A program made the translations under genes and the position numbers. A DNA stretch of 21,923 nt from a virus (Duplodnaviria > Heunggongvirae > Uroviricota > Caudoviricetes), in the IMG/VR virus record IMGVR_UViG_2690316233_000017, positions 1-21,923 of that record. One strand, given 5' to 3'. This document shows, piece after piece, positions 1-8,211 of the stretch. The notes beneath the pieces were generated by a model. That model was not told the origin of the DNA. It did not search any database and was given only the letters and a program-made list of their open reading frames with translations. Every line of letters starts with the position of its first letter. Position 1 is the stretch's first letter.

Positions 1-141
1 TTACTGCTTACACTGTAAGAACGCCGCAAACTCCGCTCCCCAGAAGCTCATCCGTATTTCACACAGCGAACCGTGCAGCATCCAGATGATGAGGATTACC
101 GTCACGCAGAACGTGATGGCCGTAAGCGATTTTTGCGACAT
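1..141 (-). CDS. hok: Hok/Gef-family type I toxin, 46 aa
   Basis: Minus-strand translation is MSQKSLTAITFCVTVILIIWMLHGSLCEIRMSFWGAEFAAFLQCKQ: an N-terminal hydrophobic helix followed by the SLCE and AAFL.CK motifs, closest to my memory of E. coli HokA. ATG at 141..139 is preceded by AAAGGAG at an 8-nt spacing; TAA stop at 3..1. The ORF track missed it because it is under 60 aa. Confidence 0.7.
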   Translation of the reverse strand: MSQKSLTAITFCVTVILIIWMLHGSLCEIRMSFWGAEFAAFLQCKQ

Positions 142-271
142 AGCGCTTGCTCCTTTGTTGGAGAGGCGCTAACCTATCACTTGCTAAGGTTAGACGGTTA
201 GGGCCTCGGTTAAACAGAAATGTTTTCCGGGGCCTTTCCACATCTGGCCTTCGGGTATTCCCTCCGACCAT
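59..271 (-). CDS. mok: Mok-like overlapping reading frame (70 aa) needed for hok translation
   Basis: A 70-aa ORF in a different frame that starts upstream of hok and fully overlaps its 5' part, which is the architecture and size of mok in hok/sok loci. Called from arrangement only; the sequence itself is not conserved. Confidence 0.4.
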   Translation of the reverse strand: MVGGNTRRPDVERPRKTFLFNRGPNRLTLASDRLAPLQQRSKRYVAKIAYGHHVLRDGNPHHLDAARFAV

Positions 272-312
272 CAGCCGAAAGGCACCCGCGCGTAATCTAT
301 CGCTTTTTTGTT
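245..312 (+). ncRNA. sok: Putative Sok-like antisense RNA region (boundaries approximate)
   Basis: Plus-strand region antisense to the mok start and leader, ending at a T-run (304..309) as expected for a short terminated antisense RNA. No clear promoter or strong terminator stem was identified, so placement rests on hok/sok architecture. Confidence 0.25.
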
Positions 313-331
313 ACTCCGGCAATTCTGCCTG

Positions 332-592
332 TTAATTCTGAGATAAAGGCAAACTCATCTGATTGTTTCCCCTGTGTGAAGCTGGCAGCTCATGCCACGG
401 GATACCTTCTGAAGAGTGAACGCCGGAGGCGTGTTTTGATGTGAATTTATGGAAAGCTTCCAGTGTTGAGAAGCATACGCCGCATTCCAGATTGTTACAC
501 TGGTAATACTTTTGCCGCACGGTGTTTGAATCATTTTCCGGACGACTGGTGCGGATACGGGCAGATGCGCCACAAAGCGGACAACGGAACAT
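332..592 (-). CDS. ogr: Ogr/Delta-family zinc-finger late transcription activator
   Basis: MFRCPLCG...YYQCNNLECGVCF carries the C-x2-C...C-x4-C zinc-finger pattern of P2 Ogr. ATG at 592 is preceded by AAGGGAGG at a 5-nt spacing. Confidence 0.85.
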   Translation of the reverse strand: MFRCPLCGASARIRTSRPENDSNTVRQKYYQCNNLECGVCFSTLEAFHKFTSKHASGVHSSEGIPWHELPASHRGNNQMSLPLSQN

Positions 593-634: not shown

Positions 635-1744
635 TCACTCTGTTTCCGCTATCCATTCCGGGATTTTTGCCTCAAGCTCAAGCTGTGTGGTAAAGCCACT
701 GTTATCAATGGTGTGCTCGGCTTTTGCAATAATCCAGTCCTGATTATCAATCTCGCTTTTAAATCCTGTTACCGTGCCATGCATTTCGGGGTAGAGTTCT
801 GCGCGTCCACGTGCCAGTGTGATGGAGAATGATGCGGCTCCGCGTTGTAGCTGCTGCCACTTTGCCGCCGCTGCGCGTCTTGCTGCCTGCTCGTTCTGAT
901 AAGTCTTGCGTAACACAAACACATTGCCTTCCGCACCTTCCATATAATCACCTTCACGGCTGCTGCTTTTCTCCTTTTTGGGTTTTGGCGGTTTGCGGCG
1001 TTTCACGCTGACTTTTTTCTTTTTCCCGTAATTAAGATCAAGCCAGTAAGCGCGTACCCCCGTATACGCTTCGCGGTCAGCAATGCGGAACTGATGGCGA
1101 TCGCCACTGCTGCGCGTGATGGCGAACGATGGCAACGGCTGGCCCTGTGCGTTCACGCCACCGCCTGGCATAATGAATAACAGATTACCGCTTTTTACCG
1201 TGGTGATTGCGCCCAGCATTTCCGCCATGCGCGTAAGAAAGGACATGTCGCTTTCTTCGGTCTGGTCGGCGTGGTCGATTTCGATATCCATCAGCATTTC
1301 GCTGATTTGTGGTTTCAGACCGTACCGATGAGCGATGGCGGATACCACACGCTCAACGGTCACATCATGCCAGGACACCTCACGTTTAACGTTAAATTCA
1401 TCCCGAAAATCTGCGCTTCTGGCTGAAACAGTCAGCCTGTCCGGCGGTCCTTCGTGAGCGATTTCATCAACAATGTAAGTGCCTTTTTCTGTCAGCGGTT
1501 CCCCTTTCCAGCCAATGAGAACCGTCAGACGCGCGCCCCGTGGCGGTAGCTGCAACTGGCCATCGGCATCATCCAGCGTGATGGTGAGCTGGTCCGCCTC
1601 AAATCCCCGGTTGTCGGTCAGCGACAGGCTCATCAGGCGCTCTGCCACGCCGGACAGCGTTTTACCCTCCGCGAGAATATCAAAATCCGGCATTTTCACG
1701 GGGTCTGTGCCCTGACTGAGCAATTGCATGGTGGTGTCGGTCAT
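635..1744 (-). CDS. D: Tail protein D (late control gene D family)
   Basis: Long ORF with gpD-like sequence. Start set at the internal ATG 1744 (MTDTTMQLLSQG...), which is preceded by GGAGGG; the 44-codon extension in the ORF track has no RBS. Confidence 0.8.
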   Translation of the reverse strand: MTDTTMQLLSQGTDPVKMPDFDILAEGKTLSGVAERLMSLSLTDNRGFEADQLTITLDDADGQLQLPPRGARLTVLIGWKGEPLTEKGTYIVDEIAHEGPPDRLTVSARSADFRDEFNVKREVSWHDVTVERVVSAIAHRYGLKPQISEMLMDIEIDHADQTEESDMSFLTRMAEMLGAITTVKSGNLLFIMPGGGVNAQGQPLPSFAITRSSGDRHQFRIADREAYTGVRAYWLDLNYGKKKKVSVKRRKPPKPKKEKSSSREGDYMEGAEGNVFVLRKTYQNEQAARRAAAAKWQQLQRGAASFSITLARGRAELYPEMHGTVTGFKSEIDNQDWIIAKAEHTIDNSGFTTQLELEAKIPEWIAETE

Positions 1745-1801
1745 CTGTTCCCTCCCTGTGCGGCATGGTCGCATGTGCGTGCGGAGTGGGTTACTGCTTT
1801 T

Positions 1802-1822
1802 TGTTGTCGCCGTGGCGGGAGA
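1802..1822 (+). promoter_or_regulatory. Candidate Ogr-dependent late promoter element upstream of FI
   Basis: TTGTTGT-N12-AGAA lies about 90 bp upstream of the FI ATG and resembles the TGT-N12-ACA activator dyad of P2 late promoters with one mismatch. A near-identical motif precedes gene P at 19119..19139. Confidence 0.35.
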
Positions 1823-1901
1823 ATAGCGCAGGGGTGAGATTACGCGCGTGGTGGGTGATGATTGTTGCTGAATCATTTAACGGATACAAGGGGCTGAAGC
1901 T

Positions 1902-3086
1902 ATGAGTGAAACTCGTTTTCATGGTGCCCGTGTTACGGAAAGTACCGACCTGGTAACAGCGATTAATGATGTTGATTCCAGTGTTATCGGTATCGTGGCA
2001 ACGGCGGATGATGCGGATGCGGAGCTGTTCCCGCTGAACAAGCCCACACTGCTGACCCGCGTCAATGACGTGCTGGGAAAATGCGGAACAACGGGGACGC
2101 TGTATCGTGCGCTTAAGGCCATCGCAGACCAGGTGAGCACAAAGGTGATCGTCGTTCGCGTGGCTGAACACAAAGAAGAAGACGGAAAGACGCAGGATCA
2201 ACTGGTTATCGGTGGTTCTGAGGATGACGGCAGCTATACGGGGATGTATGCGCTGCTTGTTGCAGAGCAGGATGAAAGCATCGGATACCGTCCGCGTATT
2301 CTGGCCGCGCCGGAGCTGGACACGGAGGCGGTAACAAAATCCCTGTGCGTGATTGCGGGTAAACTGCGCGCGTTTGTGTATGCCTCATGTCACGGCTGCA
2401 ACACGATGGCTGAGGCGATTACCTACCGCCAGAAATTCAACGAGCGTGAGGTGATGCTCTTATGGCCGGACTTCATCGCCTACAACCCGAAAAGTGGCAA
2501 AAACGAAACGTTCCCCGCGCCTGCCTATGCGTGCGGCCTTCGTGCGTACATTGACCATGAGCAGGGCTGGCACAAATCGCTGTCCAACGTTCCGGTTAAA
2601 AATGTGCTGGGGATGTCCAGGCATGTGTTTTGGTCGTTGCAGGCCGAAGACAGTGATGCCAACAGCCTCAACAACAAAGAAATCACGACCATTATTCGTC
2701 GCAACGGGTTCCGCTTCTGGGGCAACCGCACACCGGAAACGAACGCCTACATCTTTGAGGTGTATACCCGAACCGCACAGGTGCTGGCTGATTCAATTGC
2801 GGAAGCGCAGTTTGAAACCATCGACAGTCCACTGACGCCTGCGAACGTGAAAGATGTTATCAGTGCCATCAGGGCAAAACTGGATTCACTGGTTACTGCC
2901 GGGAAACTGATTGGCGCGGAGTGCTGGTATGACATCGTGGATAACAGCACCACGAATTTACGTCAGGGGCGCGTGCGTATTCGCTACAAATATACGCCTG
3001 TTCCCCCGTTGGAAGACATGGAGCTTTACCAGTCGTTTACTGATGAATTCTTTGGTCCCGCATTTGCGGTGCTGGGAGGTGCCTGA
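1902..3086 (+). CDS. FI: Contractile tail sheath protein
   Basis: 394-aa ORF with the characteristic ...DADAE.FPLNKP... region of P2 FI. RBS AAGGGG sits 8 nt upstream of the ATG. Confidence 0.9.
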   Translation: MSETRFHGARVTESTDLVTAINDVDSSVIGIVATADDADAELFPLNKPTLLTRVNDVLGKCGTTGTLYRALKAIADQVSTKVIVVRVAEHKEEDGKTQDQLVIGGSEDDGSYTGMYALLVAEQDESIGYRPRILAAPELDTEAVTKSLCVIAGKLRAFVYASCHGCNTMAEAITYRQKFNEREVMLLWPDFIAYNPKSGKNETFPAPAYACGLRAYIDHEQGWHKSLSNVPVKNVLGMSRHVFWSLQAEDSDANSLNNKEITTIIRRNGFRFWGNRTPETNAYIFEVYTRTAQVLADSIAEAQFETIDSPLTPANVKDVISAIRAKLDSLVTAGKLIGAECWYDIVDNSTTNLRQGRVRIRYKYTPVPPLEDMELYQSFTDEFFGPAFAVLGGA

Positions 3087-3598
3087 TGGCTGTACCAAAA
3101 CATCTTCGCTTTTTTACGCTGTTTGTGGATGGTGAAAACGAAGTGGGTAAGGTGACGTCCGTCACTCTGCCTAAGCTGACGCGCAAAACCGACAGCTACC
3201 GGGGTGGTGGCATGATGGGTGCGGTAAGTATTGATCTCGGTCTGGACGACTCCGCGCTTGATGCGAGCTTTGTCATGGGGGGCGCAGTTCGTGAGCTGTT
3301 CCTTAAGTATGGCGGCACGATTGACGGCACGCTGCTGCGTTTTGCGGGTGAATACTACACCGATGCAGAAAGCGACCTGTATGAAGTCGAAATGCGCGGA
3401 CGTGTGACGGAAATTGATATGGGGGAAGCCAAACAGGGCGAAGCCACATCACACACTTACGCCATTAAAAACACCTACTACAAGCTGAGTGTTAACGATC
3501 GCCCGTTGTGGGAGATTGACCTGCTGAACTTCATTTACCGGAAGGACGGCAAGGACATTGTGCCCGATCGCATCCGTTCCGCGCTCGGGCTTGGCTGA
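3086..3598 (+). CDS. FII: Tail tube protein
   Basis: 170-aa ORF directly after the sheath gene; its ATG overlaps the FI stop (TGATG). Size and position match P2 FII. Confidence 0.9.
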   Translation: MAVPKHLRFFTLFVDGENEVGKVTSVTLPKLTRKTDSYRGGGMMGAVSIDLGLDDSALDASFVMGGAVRELFLKYGGTIDGTLLRFAGEYYTDAESDLYEVEMRGRVTEIDMGEAKQGEATSHTYAIKNTYYKLSVNDRPLWEIDLLNFIYRKDGKDIVPDRIRSALGLG

Positions 3599-3652
3599 TA
3601 AGTAATATGCAGGCGGCGCAGTGCGTCGCCTCTGACTGAAAGGAGTTTCCTG

Positions 3653-4018
3653 ATGAAAGAGACGAAAAACATCGATACCGAAAACACGGTCGTTGCTGAC
3701 ACTGTGAAAGAAACCAGTGAGCGTGGCGTAAAACTTACCCAACCAATTGAGCGAGGCGGCGAAAAAATCACGTATGTGGAGATCACCGGGGCTATTGAGC
3801 AGGCTGGATCTCTGCGAGATTTATCGCTGTCTGATGTGCTGAATCTGAAAGCGGAATCCATGTTTACGCTGCTGTCACGCGTGACATCACCGCGACTGGA
3901 TGAAGTGACGATCAAAAAAATGGCATCCCGTGATTTTATTCAGTTATGTGTGGTTGCCGTAAATTTTTTGAGCGGTGCGGACTCTGGCGGGAAGAACGAA
4001 CAGGCGACGGAAGCCTGA
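3653..4018 (+). CDS. E: Tail assembly chaperone E (zero-frame product)
   Basis: 121-aa ORF between the tube and tape-measure genes, with AAAGGAG RBS. Contains a T TTT TTG slippery heptamer near its 3' end. Confidence 0.8.
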   Translation: MKETKNIDTENTVVADTVKETSERGVKLTQPIERGGEKITYVEITGAIEQAGSLRDLSLSDVLNLKAESMFTLLSRVTSPRLDEVTIKKMASRDFIQLCVVAVNFLSGADSGGKNEQATEA

Positions 4019-4182
4019 TCACGGTTGTGTGCTTTGAGCACATAGAAGACTTTGTGGCGGATATTGCCGCCATTTTTAACTGGTCGCCCGCCGAAATCTT
4101 CATGATGACGCCCGGCGAAGTGGTTAGCTGGCGTGAGCGGGCGGCACTTCGCAGCGGGAATGCAGACAATGAAGACTCTTGA
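3653..4182 (+). CDS. E': Tail assembly chaperone E+E' (predicted -1 frameshift product)
   Basis: The -1 frame is open from 3946 to 4182 and overlaps the end of E. A shift at T_TTT_TTG (3964..3970) would join the two frames, analogous to P2 E/E' and lambda G/GT. Confidence 0.55.
3964..3970 (+). other. Programmed -1 ribosomal frameshift slippery heptamer T_TTT_TTG
   Basis: The heptamer is in phase with the E reading frame (codons aat-ttt-ttg) and lies inside the E/E' overlap window. Confidence 0.55.
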
Positions 4183-6976
4183 TATCCGGGTCGCTTTCAG
4201 CGCCGTTGACAGGCTGACCCGGCCTGCCGAAAACGCCCGCCGCCTGATGGGGCAGTTTGGTGACTCCATCCAGCGAACGCAGGGGGCGATCAAAAATCTC
4301 GAGCGTCAGGCGCGATCATTTGAGCGCGCCCGCGACGCTGTCAGTAAAGCGGATGCGGGTATCGTGAAAGCACGACGCCAGCTTAACGCCCTTAATCAGT
4401 TACAACGCACGGGTACAGTGCTCAGCGAAAAACAACAAAAGCTGATGCAGCAGTTAAGCACCCGGCTTGAACGCCTGAATGAATCGCGCACACGGGAAAT
4501 TCAGAAAATGCGGGAGCTTGGCGGAGAGCTGAAACGCCACGGCATTTCCCTGACAGGCAGCGATAACACCATCCAGCAGGCCATCAGACGCACCGAACAG
4601 TACAACAACCAGCTTGAACGCGAACGGCAGGCGCTTGCGCGTGTAACGCGGGCGCGTGAGCGGTATTCGCGCGCGCAGGAAACCGCGGGAAAACTGAAAA
4701 CAGGTGGTGCGCTGGCAATTGGTGCGGCAGCGGCGGGCGGCTATGCTGCCGGGCGTTTTTTGCAGCCTGCGATCGGGTTCGGCAAAGAGATGTCCCGCGT
4801 TCAGGCACTGACGCGAATCGACAAAAACAGCCCGCAGTTTAAGGCGCTGCGTGAGCAGGCGTTAAAACTTGGCTCTGAAACACAGTTTACTGCGAGTGAT
4901 GCCGCCAGTGGGCAGAGCTTTCTGGCAATGGCTGGTTTTACTCCGCAGGCCATTCAGGCCGCATTGCCCGGTGTTCTTAATATGGCGCTGGCAGGTGGCG
5001 TCGAACTCGGCGAGACGGCGGATATAGGCTCCAATATCCTCACACAGTTCAACCTGACAGCCGATCAAATGGACCGGGTGGGCGATACGCTGACAGCAGC
5101 ATTTACCCGGACCAATACTGATTTACGCGCGCTGGGCGAAACCATGAAGTATACCGGTCCGGTTGCCGCAAAACTTGGTATCAGTCTTGAAGAAGCGGCG
5201 GCCATGGCCGGGATGCTTGCCAATAATGGTCTTCGCGGAAGCGATGCTGGCACGGCCATGCGCGCAAGTCTGTCCCGCCTTGCATCACCGCCAAAAGCTG
5301 CGGCTGATGCACTGAAAGAGCTGGGGGTGTCAGTTGCTGACGCCAGAGGCAAAATGCGCCCGATGGAGGATGTGCTGCTTGATCTCTATAAGGCGACACA
5401 AAAATACGGACAGGTGGACCAGGTCTCCTTTTTCAAGGACATCGCCGGAGAAGAGGCGTTCGTTGGTTTGCAGACGCTTGTTGCGGCGGCTGGTTCAGGA
5501 GAGCTGCAAAAACTGACCAGAGAATTGCAGGGGGCAAGGGGAGAGGCCGATCGCGTTGCAAAAGTAATGGCCGATAATCTTGATGGGGACCTGAAAAATC
5601 TCGACAGCGCATGGGAAGGTCTTCGTATTCGCATCAGTGATCTGGTTGACGGTCCGCTGCGTTCTGTCACGCAGTGGCTCACGCGGGTGCTTGAAAAAAT
5701 CACCTCGCTGGCGCAGGCCCATCCGGTACTGACACGCCAGCTACTGATAGCAGGCGGTGCGTTGCTGGCAATGACTGCAACGATTGGCTCGTTGTCGCTG
5801 GTTATTGGGGTGCTTTACGGAAAGCTGGCCACCCTGCGTCTTGGTTTTGACATTCTTACCCGGTCAATGAATGTCGTCAGGGTGTTGCCTGCGCTGTGGG
5901 GAATGCTGACGGGTTCCGTTTCTTTGCTGGGAGGCGCTATCGGGGCGCTGTTCAGTCCGGTTGGTCTTATCGTGGCTGCGCTTGCCGGAGCTGCCGTTCT
6001 TATCTGGAAATACTGGGATCCCATCAGGGCATTTTTTGCCGGGGTGTTCAGCGGGATTATGGAAAGGCTGAACCCGTTGCGTGAAACCTTTGAACGGTTT
6101 GGCCCTGTTTTTGACGCAATCGGAAGCGGGATCAGCCAGGTGTTTAACTGGTTTAAATCGCTGCTGTCACCGATGGAGTCCAGCAAGGAAACGCTGGATA
6201 AATGTACCAGTGCTGGCGAGATATTCGGTAACGTTCTTGGTGGCGCGTTACAGCTTGTTCTGACGCCTGCAAAAATGTTGCTGGATACGCTGGCGTGGAT
6301 ACTTGAAAAACTCGGTGTTCTTCCGGATGAAGCGGAAAGGGCGAGAAAGAAAATCGAAGACGCACAGCGTGCGGCCATTCTTCAGGACAAGGTTGCCTTG
6401 CTTCAGGGGGACCTGGCGAAAATCAATCCGCCGAAGCCTGTGGAAAATGGCAATGGCACCGGAGGTGATAACCCCAAAGACAACAAACCGCTCACAGACA
6501 GCAATACCGGTACGCTACGCAGACTCAGCAAAATTGCTGATAACACAGGTAAGCTGGTTGATGTGACGAAAAAACGCATTGGCCCCGGCGATATTGTCTT
6601 TAAGAACCTGCCCCGCGCACTTGCTGTTCGTGGGGAGTGGCAGGAGCGGAAGATTGCGCAGGTCAGTAAGCCTGCCCCCGCAATTAATATCACACCCGTG
6701 GTTCCGGCTCCGCTGCCTCCGGCGCTGGTCCCTGTTGTTGCGGCCAGCTCCCGCCCGGTGGCGGAGGCCATACGATCGCCAGTGGCATCAGTTCCTGCAA
6801 CTTCCCGTAACCGTGAGCCTGTTGCCTCCGGATTTGGCGGTGAAATTCATGTTCATCTGCATAACGTTGTTACACAGAATCCCCGCGAACTGGCGAAACT
6901 GGTCGGTGAAATGGTCAGGGCAGAAATGGAACGGCGCGCCCGTGCCGGGCGTGGCAGTTTTTACGATAAAGATTGA
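4160..6976 (+). CDS. T: Tail tape measure protein
   Basis: About 939-aa ORF with a coiled-coil-like N-terminus, a central hydrophobic/Gly-Ala-rich segment and a Pro-rich C-terminus, placed after E/E' as in P2. Start is ambiguous between ATG 4160 and ATG 4169; the ORF track's 4133 begins on a non-ATG codon. Confidence 0.85.
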   Translation: MQTMKTLDIRVAFSAVDRLTRPAENARRLMGQFGDSIQRTQGAIKNLERQARSFERARDAVSKADAGIVKARRQLNALNQLQRTGTVLSEKQQKLMQQLSTRLERLNESRTREIQKMRELGGELKRHGISLTGSDNTIQQAIRRTEQYNNQLERERQALARVTRARERYSRAQETAGKLKTGGALAIGAAAAGGYAAGRFLQPAIGFGKEMSRVQALTRIDKNSPQFKALREQALKLGSETQFTASDAASGQSFLAMAGFTPQAIQAALPGVLNMALAGGVELGETADIGSNILTQFNLTADQMDRVGDTLTAAFTRTNTDLRALGETMKYTGPVAAKLGISLEEAAAMAGMLANNGLRGSDAGTAMRASLSRLASPPKAAADALKELGVSVADARGKMRPMEDVLLDLYKATQKYGQVDQVSFFKDIAGEEAFVGLQTLVAAAGSGELQKLTRELQGARGEADRVAKVMADNLDGDLKNLDSAWEGLRIRISDLVDGPLRSVTQWLTRVLEKITSLAQAHPVLTRQLLIAGGALLAMTATIGSLSLVIGVLYGKLATLRLGFDILTRSMNVVRVLPALWGMLTGSVSLLGGAIGALFSPVGLIVAALAGAAVLIWKYWDPIRAFFAGVFSGIMERLNPLRETFERFGPVFDAIGSGISQVFNWFKSLLSPMESSKETLDKCTSAGEIFGNVLGGALQLVLTPAKMLLDTLAWILEKLGVLPDEAERARKKIEDAQRAAILQDKVALLQGDLAKINPPKPVENGNGTGGDNPKDNKPLTDSNTGTLRRLSKIADNTGKLVDVTKKRIGPGDIVFKNLPRALAVRGEWQERKIAQVSKPAPAINITPVVPAPLPPALVPVVAASSRPVAEAIRSPVASVPATSRNREPVASGFGGEIHVHLHNVVTQNPRELAKLVGEMVRAEMERRARAGRGSFYDKD

Positions 6977-6988
6977 GGAGTCATGGCC

Positions 6989-7477
6989 ATGATGATGATC
7001 TACGGCATGTTTGTTTTTGAGCTGCGCACGCTGCCGCATCAGCAGTTACAGCAAAACAAAAGCTGGCGGCATGTGAAAAATGAGCGCGTTAACCGTTCAG
7101 CAAGCTGGCAGTATATCGGTGCAGGTGATGATCGCATCGTTCTTTCTGGTGTGCTTTATCCTGAAATTACAGGTGGCGAAGTGTCGCTGTCGCTGCTGAC
7201 CACGCAGGCGTATACAGGACGACCCTGGCCTTTGATTGATGGCGTCGGGCAGATTTACGGCATGTATGTCCTGACCGGAACGAATACGACCCGTTCCGAG
7301 TTTGATCGCTACGGTAAGGCGAAAAAGATAGAATTTTCACTGACCCTTGAACGCTGTGATGAGGATTTGCGGGAGCGCCTGCAATCCTCATCGTTCAGCG
7401 ATATGCTGTCCGGCTTCAAAGATAAAGTGACATCATCCCTTAACAGCGCGGCCAGTTCAGTTAAAGGGCTGTTCTGA
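6989..7477 (+). CDS. U: Tail protein U
   Basis: gpU-like ORF immediately after T. GAGGAG at 6975..6980 is spaced 8 nt from ATG 6989; the ATG at 6983 is only 2 nt from it. Confidence 0.8.
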   Translation: MMMIYGMFVFELRTLPHQQLQQNKSWRHVKNERVNRSASWQYIGAGDDRIVLSGVLYPEITGGEVSLSLLTTQAYTGRPWPLIDGVGQIYGMYVLTGTNTTRSEFDRYGKAKKIEFSLTLERCDEDLRERLQSSSFSDMLSGFKDKVTSSLNSAASSVKGLF

Positions 7478-7524: not shown

Positions 7525-7647
7525 TCTTAACACTCACCATTTGATTGCACCAGTGTTAACGATTTGTTACCGGATATCAGACGCGCTGGATAGCCAGTAG
7601 AAACATACCATTAAAATTATTACAATAATTGGTCACATGATTATCTT

Positions 7648-8211
7648 ATGCTAAATAATAGAGATATGAATATTAATGAACTTAAAGACTGTATTCACTA
7701 TGAAGTAATCGGTAGCGAGCGTCCTTTCTCCTGGCGAAAGGCAATTGTTCGCGCAATAAAACATAGAAGAGTTCGTTATTTATTTTGGTGGCGCATAGCC
7801 AAATACCTTTTTGATAAAGGCGGATACTGTCGGAAGATTGCGGGGAAAATAGAACGTTTCATTCTTGATAAATATAATGTAACAGTCCCTTTAACTGTAA
7901 ATATAGGGAAAGGCTTTGATATTTCTTATCTCAATAGTGTTGTTATCGGTCACAAAGTAACCATCGGTGAAAATTGTTCAATAAAACCAGGGGTAACTAT
8001 TGGGCTACGTGGTGATTTTAATGATATGGATATTGTTATAGGACATAATGTGACCATTGGTTGTAATGCCACCATTCTTGGTGGCAAAGTGCGTATAGGA
8101 AACAATGTCACAATAGGTGCTCATGCATTGGTATTGCATGATATTCCTGATGATTCAACATTCATCACTAAATTTCAGTCTGAAGTTATCTGCTCGTCCT
8201 CCCGCACATAA
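7648..8211 (+). CDS. Hexapeptide-repeat (left-handed beta-helix) acetyltransferase, WcaB/CysE-like; cargo gene
   Basis: Repeated [LIV]-G-x-x-x-x hexapeptides ([22 protein letters not shown]...[34 protein letters not shown]) after a helical N-terminal region, as in serine/sugar O-acetyltransferases. Strongly AT-rich by eye compared with the flanking phage genes. Start could also be ATG 7666. Confidence 0.7.

What the first reader, a model, noticed from the sequence alone, without database searches (positions are those of the whole stretch)
1..331. hok/mok (HokA-like) type I toxin locus directly beyond ogr at the prophage edge
A 46-aa Hok-family toxin with a strong RBS and a 70-aa Mok-like overlapping frame lie about 190 bp downstream of ogr on the same strand. 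The hok mRNA leader and promoter must then overlap the 3' end of ogr. In P2 the region past ogr is the attachment site, so this is either a toxin-antitoxin (TA) module carried at the prophage end (addiction or abortive-infection role) or the first host gene after the right attachment site. The window ends at the hok stop, so the 3' fold-back element is not visible.
Basis: partly seen in the sequence, partly recalled or inferred. Interest (0 to 1): 0.55.

Follow-up and report, generated by a model that had tools for sequence, protein, structure and literature searches.

The report
Known hok toxin cargo beside ogr
The window opens with an intact Hok-type toxin/antisense-RNA module that a P2-family prophage carries between its ogr gene and its attachment site; it is real and is phage cargo, but it is already annotated, catalogued and common in E. 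coli.

Summary
The 46-aa Hok ORF (1..141, minus strand), its AAGGAG ribosome-binding site and ogr 190 nt upstream are all present. Hok passes Pfam HOK_GEF. The DNA is a P88-like (Xuanwuvirus, P2-family) E. coli prophage.

In the closest genomes the prophage is bounded by a 124-bp direct repeat at leuZ, and hok lies 941 bp inside it. K-12 has the empty site. Sequenced phages (P88, P884B11 and others) carry the same ogr-hok stretch. So hok is phage cargo, not a host gene.

DNA left of the window supplies the missing 3' fold-back element and a terminator. The 5'-3' pairing is supported by compensatory changes across 24 distinct copies.

- The 70-aa "Mok-like" frame is specific to a few alleles (an ATG in 3 of 26 copies; closed in P88 itself).
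- The hok promoter fits in the 44-nt gap after ogr rather than overlapping it.
- Sok is predicted at about 182-240, not 240-312.

The exact peptide is in RefSeq and in a 2026 Hok survey, where a one-residue variant was reported toxic. The module occurs in 1545 of 5426 complete E. coli genomes. The finding is correct but ordinary. The only mildly new point is that this Hok subfamily appears to lack mok.

The parts
1..141 (-). hok coding sequence: a 46-aa Hok/Gef-family membrane toxin (RefSeq WP_000078920.1; cluster 72 of the 2026 Hok survey)
   Evidence: ORF list; Pfam PF01848 at 30.1 bits against a cut-off of 22; PHROG 251 at 82.8 bits; annotated in RefSeq genomes; the ORF is intact at 46 aa in 25 of 26 distinct copies and 45 aa in L025
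150..155 (-). hok Shine-Dalgarno AAGGAG, 8 nt before the AUG, predicted to be buried in a conserved hairpin
   Evidence: Sequence; helix 7 of the mapped structure is 95.4% paired across copies, with one-sided changes only; P(unpaired) is about 0 in the folds
142..287 (-). hok mRNA 5' leader (146 nt) starting at the conserved GGGUGCC
   Evidence: Rfam RF01794 match 131..287, model position 1 at 287, E = 6.8e-9 but below the gathering score; GGGTGCC is present in all 25 aligned copies, and one further 5'-truncated copy (L011) lacks it
273..287 (-). tac element: the first 15 nt of the mRNA, which pair with the fbi element about 49-65 nt beyond the left window edge (L001 5935-5951)
   Evidence: The MFE fold of the 400-nt mRNA closes 5' on 3' (-182.1 kcal/mol, z = -8.3); 93.8% of cells pair against 40-50% when slid, 4 pairs show changes on both sides, 0 of 500 shuffles reach this
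229..239 (-). ucb-like box GGAAAGGCCCC, which pairs with GAGGCC in the full-length fold and with the tac element once the 3' end is removed
   Evidence: Folds of full-length and truncated RNA; prediction only
294..322 (-). candidate hok promoter: -35 TTGCCG (322-317), 17-nt spacer, -10 TAGATT (299-294), 6 nt before the +1 at 287; it lies wholly downstream of the ogr stop codon (334-332)
   Evidence: Sequence; a -10 box is kept at the same distance from GGGTGCC in the other copies (TAGAAT, TAAATT); it matches only 8 of 12 consensus positions and was not called by the promoter scan
147..175 (+). candidate Sok promoter: -35 TTGCTC (147-152), 17-nt spacer, -10 TAACCT (170-175), overlapping the hok SD region on the other strand
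   Evidence: Aligns with TTGCGC-N17-TATCCT, the Sok promoter of an R1-type locus as recalled from the R1 literature (the fetched record does not annotate it); the -10 complement AGGTTA is invariant or nearly so in 25 copies; not called by the consensus scan
182..240 (+). predicted Sok antisense RNA (about 55-62 nt): a 5' tail, a GC-rich stem-loop, then GGGGCCUUUCC
   Evidence: Same layout as R1 Sok in the alignment; window 181-250 folds at -33.3 kcal/mol, z = -5.7; no expression data, and the ends are inferred
59..271 (-). 70-aa ORF in the mok register; judged an allele-specific open frame, not a gene
   Evidence: An ATG in 3 of 26 copies, no start codon in 18 of 26, closed in P88 and P884B11; all-frame test; R1's mok AUG aligns to CTAACC here
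332..592 (-). ogr: late-gene activator with a zinc finger, 86 aa (72 aa in P2)
   Evidence: PF04606 at 52.4 bits; RefSeq annotation; P2 ogr is 219 nt
635..1876 (-). gene D (tail/baseplate hub); the true start is probably the internal MTDTTMQ at about 1744
   Evidence: PF05954 at 62.8 bits; P88-type phages annotate 1101-1110 nt

Best explanation
Positions 1-331 hold most of an intact hok/sok-type type I toxin-antitoxin module. It is cargo of a P88-like (Xuanwuvirus, P2-family) prophage, sitting between ogr and the phage attachment site.

Shown:
- The Hok ORF is a family member.
- The module is about 400 nt, from a conserved 5' end at 287 to a terminator about 86-113 nt beyond the left window edge.
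- The first 15 nt pair with a 3' fold-back element, and a second long-range helix ties the predicted Sok-target loop to the 3' UTR. Both are supported by compensatory substitutions.
- In the closest genomes hok lies 941 bp inside the 124-bp att repeat at leuZ, and the module is present in packaged phage genomes.

Inferred from the R1 paradigm:
- The full-length mRNA is locked and inert.
- 3' trimming releases the 5' element, which re-pairs internally.
- A short antisense Sok RNA (about 182-240, plus strand) then pairs with the leader and blocks expression or triggers RNase III cleavage.
- When Sok is no longer made, Hok is translated and damages the inner membrane.

Unlike R1, this subfamily has no conserved mok, so Hok translation is probably not coupled to a leader peptide.

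The biological role is inferred only. The most likely role is retention of the prophage by killing cells that lose it. A possible second role is help with lysis during lytic growth, because no terminator separates ogr from hok.
For: - Family and anatomy.
- Phage identity: 97-98% identity to P88, P884B11, PhiR44_2 and Shae_phiSM across D-ogr-hok (annotations).
- att mapping: the left flank matches K-12 up to L001 5059 and the right flank from L004 28591, with a 124-bp repeat carrying 1 mismatch. The K-12 site is empty. The integrase is at the yecA end. The two best whole-window relatives show the same flank.
- Portability: the same ogr-hok pair sits at the prophage edge next to serS and ihfA in other strains, and D-ogr-hok also occurs in Salmonella.
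- RNA: MFE -182.1 kcal/mol, z = -8.3, with 5'-3' closure. The tac/fbi helix is 93.8% paired against 40-50% when slid, with 4 compensatory pairs. Helix 6 has 10 of 14 compensatory pairs and the 3' hairpin 5 of 9. A terminator is called at L001 5914-5887.
- Sok: promoter and body are homologous to an R1-type locus, and the region folds stably.
- Toxicity: the exact peptide is catalogued. Constructs 72_1621 (V15A) and 72_1589 were tested and are not among the 3 non-toxic ones of 45.
- No minus-strand terminator lies between ogr and hok, whereas P2 has one right after ogr.
Against: - No transcript data exist for this locus, so the Sok ends and both promoters are inferred. Neither promoter reaches the consensus scan threshold.
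- The Rfam hit is below its gathering score.
- Without mok, the step that links Sok to Hok translation is unknown. Folding with 3' truncation and a simulated Sok duplex left the hok SD almost fully paired in most copies, so that test was inconclusive.
- No genome in the collection matches the whole window at 100% (best 99.3%), so the left flank is taken from close relatives.
- The Hok survey preprint cites earlier work in which chromosomal hok loci failed to mediate post-segregational killing, so activity in situ is not guaranteed.
Confidence: 0.85

Rival explanations
1. hok is the first host gene beyond the right attachment site, not part of the prophage.
For: In P2 itself, attP follows ogr within about 100 bp, so a gene 190 nt past ogr could be expected to be host DNA. 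hok genes are common on E. coli chromosomes.
Against: The 124-bp att repeat places hok 941 bp inside the element, and K-12 has an empty leuZ-yecA site without hok. Sequenced phage genomes contain it. The same ogr-hok pair is found at serS and ihfA sites.
Confidence: 0.02
2. It is a canonical R1-type hok/mok/sok locus in which the 70-aa frame is Mok and Hok translation is coupled to it.
For: The frame is open for 70 codons with an ATG, and it is in the same register relative to hok as R1 mok. In R1, Mok translation up to the hok SD is required (PMC9841398).
Against: An ATG is present in only 3 of 26 copies and 18 of 26 have no start codon. The frame is closed in P88 and P884B11, whose Hok is identical or 98% identical. 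No conserved upstream ORF exists in any frame. R1's mok AUG aligns to CTAACC here. The ATG at 271 has no SD and sits in the tac stem.
Confidence: 0.07
3. The module is an inactive relic that hitch-hikes with the phage and has no present function.
For: K-12 chromosomal hok loci are reported as inactive for post-segregational killing (cited in the preprint). A decayed second hok promoter/leader lies next to att, showing that such modules do decay here. The promoters are weak matches to consensus.
Against: The ORF is intact in 25 of 26 copies (45 aa in one) across E. coli, Salmonella and Klebsiella. RNA helices are maintained by compensatory changes. Cluster representatives are toxic. The module keeps its position in phages with different integration sites.
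Confidence: 0.1
4. Its main role is to help lysis and progeny release during lytic growth, as shown for hokW-sokW of Sp5, rather than prophage retention.
For: hokW-sokW speeds growth arrest after induction and doubles released Sp5 phage (PMC8621323). Here no terminator separates ogr from hok, so transcripts from ogr upstream should run through the module.
Against: hokW is a different locus (a 51-aa, HokC/D-like peptide). Nothing is known about Sok loss in this phage. Read-through transcripts would still contain the locking elements.
Confidence: 0.3

Closest known systems
hok/sok (parB) of plasmid R1
   Same: Small Hok toxin; a leader of about 150 nt; 5' tac / 3' fbi closure of a roughly 400-nt mRNA; an internal box that can take over the tac element after 3' trimming; the antisense promoter at the homologous place (TTGCGC-N17-TATCCT against TTGCTC-N17-TAACCT); a Sok-like stem-loop.
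   Different: No conserved mok: R1's mok AUG aligns to CTAACC. Hok is 46 aa rather than 52 aa. DNA similarity is too low for blastn. The locus is carried by a phage rather than a plasmid.
The same module in phage P88 / Xuanwuvirus P884B11 and in RefSeq E. coli genomes (WP_000078920.1; 'MokW-like host killing', 'Hok/Gef family protein')
   Same: 97-100% identical DNA and the same D-ogr-hok order. Hok is identical in P88.
   Different: The DNA beyond the hok terminator differs with the integration module. Here an 821-bp stretch specific to leuZ-integrating prophages follows.
Cluster 72 of the Hok survey (bioRxiv 10.1101/2025.08.07.668861)
   Same: The exact peptide is listed (entry 1628). A V15A variant (72_1621) and the Sp5 type (72_1589) were cloned for toxicity assays. 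The survey also reports hok enrichment in prophages and tandem islets.
   Different: The survey did not analyse mok, Sok or mRNA structure, and does not mention the ogr-att position in P2-like phages.
hokW-sokW of Stx2 prophage Sp5 (PMC8621323)
   Same: A prophage-borne hok/sok module with shown toxin and antitoxin activity and a role after induction.
   Different: A different locus and peptide (51 aa, MKQQKAM...). The true Sp5 homologue of the window's hok lies unannotated beside lom (82.6% DNA identity, 76% protein identity).
E. coli K-12 hokA
   Same: The nearest NCBIfam model, sharing the SLCE...FAAFL.CK motif and two cysteines.
   Different: 35.8 bits against an equivalog cut-off of 89, so it is not an orthologue.
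Phage P2 ogr-attP interval
   Same: ogr is the last late-region gene before attP and int.
   Different: P2 has a terminator and then attP within about 100 bp of ogr. Here the hok module, with its own terminator, plus about 0.8 kb of further cargo lies between them.

Membership tests
Hok/Gef toxin family (Pfam PF01848) | Profile score above the curated cut-off over the full domain | tested here: met
   30.1 bits against 22, profile positions 5-42 of 42; PHROG 251 at 82.8 bits
Hok/Gef toxin family (Pfam PF01848) | The peptide is toxic when expressed | not testable with these tools
   Published for the one-residue variant 72_1621 and for 72_1589: both were cloned for the assay and neither is among the 3 non-toxic constructs of 45
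hok/sok type I TA locus (R1 paradigm) | Long structured 5' leader homologous to hok leaders | tested here: inconclusive
   RF01794 spans the full model with E = 6.8e-9, but 45.9 bits is below the gathering score of 59. The model covers the hok-sense leader, so the hit shows locus homology, not a Sok transcript
hok/sok type I TA locus (R1 paradigm) | 5' tac element pairs with 3' fbi element in the full-length mRNA | tested here: met
   15-bp closure in the MFE fold; 93.8% paired, 4 compensatory pairs, slid controls 40-50%
hok/sok type I TA locus (R1 paradigm) | cis-encoded antisense Sok RNA with its own promoter, complementary to the leader | tested here: inconclusive
   The promoter and stem-loop align with those recalled for an R1-type locus, and the -10 box is conserved. 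There is no consensus promoter call and no expression data
hok/sok type I TA locus (R1 paradigm) | Overlapping mok reading frame whose translation is coupled to hok | tested here: not met
   Present in this allele but not conserved: an ATG in 3 of 26 copies, no start codon in 18 of 26; all-frame test; no start codon at the R1 mok position
hok/sok type I TA locus (R1 paradigm) | 3' processing to a translatable truncated mRNA | not testable with these tools
   Folding predicts that the tac element re-pairs with an internal box after truncation, but that is a prediction only
HokA (NCBIfam NF007290, equivalog) | Score above the equivalog cut-off | tested here: not met
   35.8 bits against 89
hokW-sokW of Sp5 | Same locus and peptide as the characterised HokW (51 aa, MKQQKAM...) | tested here: not met
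   The primer-encoded HokW termini differ. The Sp5 homologue of this hok is a separate 46-aa gene beside lom
P88-like P2-family prophage (Peduoviridae, Xuanwuvirus) | Near-identical late region and gene order, and integration with an att duplication | tested here: met
   97-98% identity to the P88-type phages over D-ogr-hok; a P2-family gene set across the prophage; a 124-bp att repeat at leuZ

The most novel reading that the evidence does not exclude
Cluster-72 Hok modules form a naturally mok-less branch of hok/sok. The R1-type RNA switch is kept and still exposes the invariant GAGGC (R1's mok SD), but no start codon follows it. That motif could act as a ribosome standby site that Sok blocks, or Sok could act only through duplex cleavage. 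In P88-like phages the module has replaced the ogr terminator, so transcription coming from ogr upstream would run into hok and could tie Hok release to lytic growth.
Probability: 0.3. Interest if true: 0.45.

Novelty: already known. Interest (0 to 1): 0.2.

Why it matters
For genome annotation the result is routine. The gene is already named in RefSeq and in the P88 phage record, hok enrichment in prophages is published, and toxicity of this cluster has been reported.

Two points have some value. First, the ogr-to-att interval of P2-family prophages is a stable home for hok modules (single, tandem or decayed), whatever the integration site. Second, this abundant subfamily keeps every RNA hallmark of hok but has no conserved mok. 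That makes it a natural test case for how Sok can control Hok without a leader peptide.

Tried and rejected
- Consensus promoter scan of the locus: no promoter was called. Promoter assignments therefore rest on homology and conservation only.
- Structural test of a mok-free control mechanism, in which 3' truncation exposes the hok SD and Sok pairing re-buries it: the SD stayed about 0-0.3 unpaired in all states. The direction was consistent but the effect weak, so the result is inconclusive.
- hokW-sokW as the closest characterised relative: rejected. The primer table shows a different 51-aa peptide, and the Sp5 match is a second, unannotated hok beside lom.
- Rfam on the DNA between att and hok: no second sok/hok hit. 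The decayed leader was found only by blastn with short words.
- Search for the 821-bp att-hok spacer in phage records: no match.
- Two papers that mention hok together with P2-like phages held nothing relevant.
- Search for a 100% whole-window source genome: none was found; the best was 99.3%.

Full report
**Observation.** The minus strand of 1..141 encodes the 46-aa peptide MSQKSLTAITFCVTVILIIWMLHGSLCEIRMSFWGAEFAAFLQCKQ, and the ORF ends exactly at the window edge. It passes Pfam HOK_GEF (30.1 bits against a cut-off of 22) and PHROG 251 (82.8 bits). AAGGAG lies 8 nt before the AUG. ogr (332..592, PF04606) and gene D (635..1876, PF05954) are upstream on the same strand, and the ogr-hok gap is 190 nt. 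Rfam's sok model matches 131..287 on the minus strand with E = 6.8e-9, though it falls below its gathering score. That model in fact covers the hok-sense leader from +1 to the hok AUG. The 70-aa ORF at 59..271 is also there.

**What the DNA is.** The first 1900 bases are 100% identical to several E. coli chromosomes. They are 97-98% identical to the sequenced phages P88, Xuanwuvirus P884B11, PhiR44_2 and Citrobacter phage Shae_phiSM, where the gene is annotated 'MokW-like host killing' or hok/gef family. No genome matches the whole 21.9-kb window at 100%; the best are O121:H19 and O103 strains at 99.2-99.3%. The left flank was therefore read from three close relatives, which all agree.

**Phage cargo or host gene.**
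- In NZ_CM143726.1 the prophage lies between the glyW-cysT-leuZ tRNA cluster and yecA, with the integrase at the yecA end.
- K-12 MG1655 has these host genes adjacent, with no hok between them.
- The left flank matches K-12 up to L001 5059 and the right flank matches from L004 28591. A 124-bp direct repeat with one mismatch (L001 4936-5059 and L004 28591-28714) marks the att core. It consists of the 3' half of leuZ plus 3'ETS-leuZ and its terminator.
- hok (L001 6001-6141) is therefore 941 bp inside the element.
- The same ogr-hok pair sits at the prophage edge next to serS and next to ihfA in other strains. D-ogr-hok also occurs in Salmonella prophages.
- D-ogr-hok is contiguous in 859 of 5426 complete E. 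coli genomes. The hok module alone is in 1545 genomes, and also in 198 phage records and 35 plasmids.

- Left of the window, the hok 3' UTR holds a GC-rich hairpin, the element GGCCGAUAAGGCACCC (L001 5936-5951) and a terminator (L001 5914-5887).
- The 400-nt RNA from 287 to the terminator folds at -182.1 kcal/mol (z = -8.3). Its first 15 nt pair with that 3' element.
- On an alignment of 25 copies from E. coli, phages, a plasmid, Salmonella and Klebsiella, this helix is 93.8% paired, against 40-50% when the partner is slid. Four pairs changed on both sides (for example U-A/C-G/G-C in E. coli against C-G/G-C/A-U in Salmonella), and 0 of 500 shuffles reach the observed value.
- A second long-range helix joins the predicted Sok-target loop to the 3' UTR and has 10 of 14 compensatory pairs. 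The 3' hairpin has 5 of 9.
- Homology to P88 stops exactly at the end of the terminator. The conserved unit is therefore promoter to terminator, about 430 bp.

**mok.** The 70-aa frame is in the same register as R1 mok, but it is not conserved.
- Among 26 distinct copies, only 3 have an ATG in that frame and 18 have no ATG, GTG or TTG.
- In P88, with an identical Hok, the frame is closed 43 nt before hok. In P884B11 it is closed at 16 nt.
- Testing all frames, 4 of 25 copies have an ATG upstream ORF that reaches the hok SD, and 12 of 25 have none with any start codon.
- In an alignment with a genuine R1-type locus, R1's mok AUG falls on CTAACC.
- In R1, Mok translation up to the hok SD is required for Hok synthesis (PMC9841398). 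This subfamily therefore differs from the paradigm in that respect.

**Promoters and Sok.**
- The conserved mRNA 5' end GGGUGCC is at 287. TAGATT (299-294) and TTGCCG (322-317), with a 17-nt spacer, precede it. Both lie downstream of the ogr stop codon (334-332), so the promoter need not overlap ogr.
- It matches only 8 of 12 consensus positions and was not called by the scan. A -10 box is kept in the other copies.
- On the plus strand, TTGCTC (147-152), a 17-nt spacer and TAACCT (170-175) align with TTGCGC-N17-TATCCT, which I recall from the R1 literature as the Sok promoter; the fetched R1-type record does not annotate it. The following 60 nt have the same tail, stem-loop and GGGGC layout as R1 Sok.
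- The complement of this -10 box is invariant or nearly so, and 181-250 folds at -33.3 kcal/mol (z = -5.7).
- Sok is therefore predicted at about 182-240, not at 240-312. All of this is inference; no transcript data were available.

**Mechanism.**
- Shown: family membership, the RNA architecture with covariation, and the position inside the prophage.
- Inferred from R1: the full-length mRNA is inert, 3' trimming frees the 5' element, Sok pairs with the leader, and loss of Sok allows Hok synthesis.
- In folds of 3'-truncated RNA the 5' element re-pairs with GGAAAGGCCCC (+49..+59), which frees the invariant GAGGC. This is the R1-type switch, but no start codon follows.
- My test of a simple SD-exposure model was inconclusive, because the hok SD stays almost fully paired in every state.

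**Role.** The role is not shown. Prophage retention is the default reading for such a module. A lysis-helper role is possible, because hokW-sokW of Sp5 aids release after induction (PMC8621323), and because no terminator separates ogr from hok here whereas P2 has one directly after ogr.

**Comparison with what is known.**
- HokA is the nearest NCBIfam model but is far below its cut-off (35.8 against 89 bits).
- The published hokW is a different 51-aa gene. Sp5 carries a second, unannotated copy of the present type beside lom.
- The 2026 Hok survey (bioRxiv 10.1101/2025.08.07.668861) lists the exact peptide in its cluster 72. It cloned a V15A variant and the Sp5 type for toxicity assays and names only three other constructs as non-toxic.
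- The survey also reports hok enrichment in prophages and tandem islets. It did not analyse mok or the position in P2-like phages.

**Verdict.** The finding is real and its main reading (a TA module carried at the prophage end) is right. Three details are wrong: mok, promoter overlap with ogr, and the Sok coordinates. The thing itself is already known and common. The apparent absence of mok in this subfamily is the only point that might repay further work.

Noticed in passing
L001 5195-5297 (about 700-800 bp left of window position 1, next to the att core): A decayed second hok promoter plus the first ~90 nt of leader, 71% identical to the intact one (E = 2e-9) and in the same orientation, with no hok ORF behind it. 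It suggests a former tandem hok, or recombination between hok modules at the phage end.
   Followed up: partly
L012-L015 (Salmonella; hok at 2005, 2503, 3001) and L024 (E. coli; hok at 1628-1768, 2102-2242, 2826-2966): Two or three hok modules in tandem, about 0.5 kb apart in Salmonella (0.5-0.7 kb in E. coli L024). In Salmonella they lie directly after D-ogr in P2-like prophages; in E. coli L024 they lie after serS. This matches the 'islets' reported in the Hok survey.
   Followed up: partly
L001 4936-5059 and L004 28591-28714: The att core is unusually long (124 bp). It duplicates the 3' half of leuZ together with the whole 3'ETS-leuZ small RNA and its terminator, with one mismatch, so after integration the 3' half of leuZ and its 3'ETS may be partly phage-derived, depending on the crossover point.
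   Followed up: partly
L001 5530-5811: A 93-aa gene for a signal-peptide-bearing, cysteine-rich protein (phrog_27544, 199 bits; no Pfam or NCBIfam match) lies between att and hok on the opposite strand. It is found only with leuZ-integrated P2-like prophages (646 genomes) and in no deposited phage genome.
   Followed up: partly
window 7648-8211 (+): A 187-aa hexapeptide-repeat acetyltransferase (PF00132, 47.5 bits) sits between gene U and the tail-fibre assembly gene, on the opposite strand to the fibre genes. From memory of the P2 map, this is where P2 carries its Z/fun moron. A 23-nt imperfect inverted repeat has arms at 7619-7641 (just upstream of the ORF) and 8045-8067 (inside its 3' part).
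   Followed up: no
window 635-7477: Genes D and ogr (minus strand) diverge from the genes at 1902-7477 (plus strand; sheath, tube, tape measure and neighbours, by position FI-FII-E-T-U). In P2, D and ogr are on the same strand, and the terminator after ogr is annotated as ending the F operon as well. P88 shows the same divergence, so it is a trait of this genus. It makes D-ogr(-hok) a separate leftward unit.
   Followed up: no
window 332-592 (-): Ogr is 86 aa here against 72 aa in P2, so it has a C-terminal extension beyond the zinc-finger domain (the Pfam match covers residues 3-49).
   Followed up: no
L006 2566-2706 (E. coli O157:H7 Sakai, NC_002695.2, inside prophage Sp5 beside lom): An intact 46-aa hok of the present type is not annotated in the Sakai reference record. 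Sp5 therefore carries two different hok modules, of which only hokW has been studied.
   Followed up: partly
L004 14343-19280 (just beyond the right end of the window, in NZ_CM143726.1): Beyond the portal gene the prophage carries an S8 peptidase plus AAA ATPase pair and a ParM-type segregation pair. From memory of the P2 map, this corresponds to P2's variable tin/old region, so these may be defence and maintenance cargo.
   Followed up: no
window 635-1876 (-), L001 6635-7488: RefSeq annotation splits gene D into an 801-nt 'VgrG/Pvc8 family' CDS plus a partial pseudogene in several genomes, although the ORF is uninterrupted in the window. This looks like an annotation artefact.
   Followed up: no
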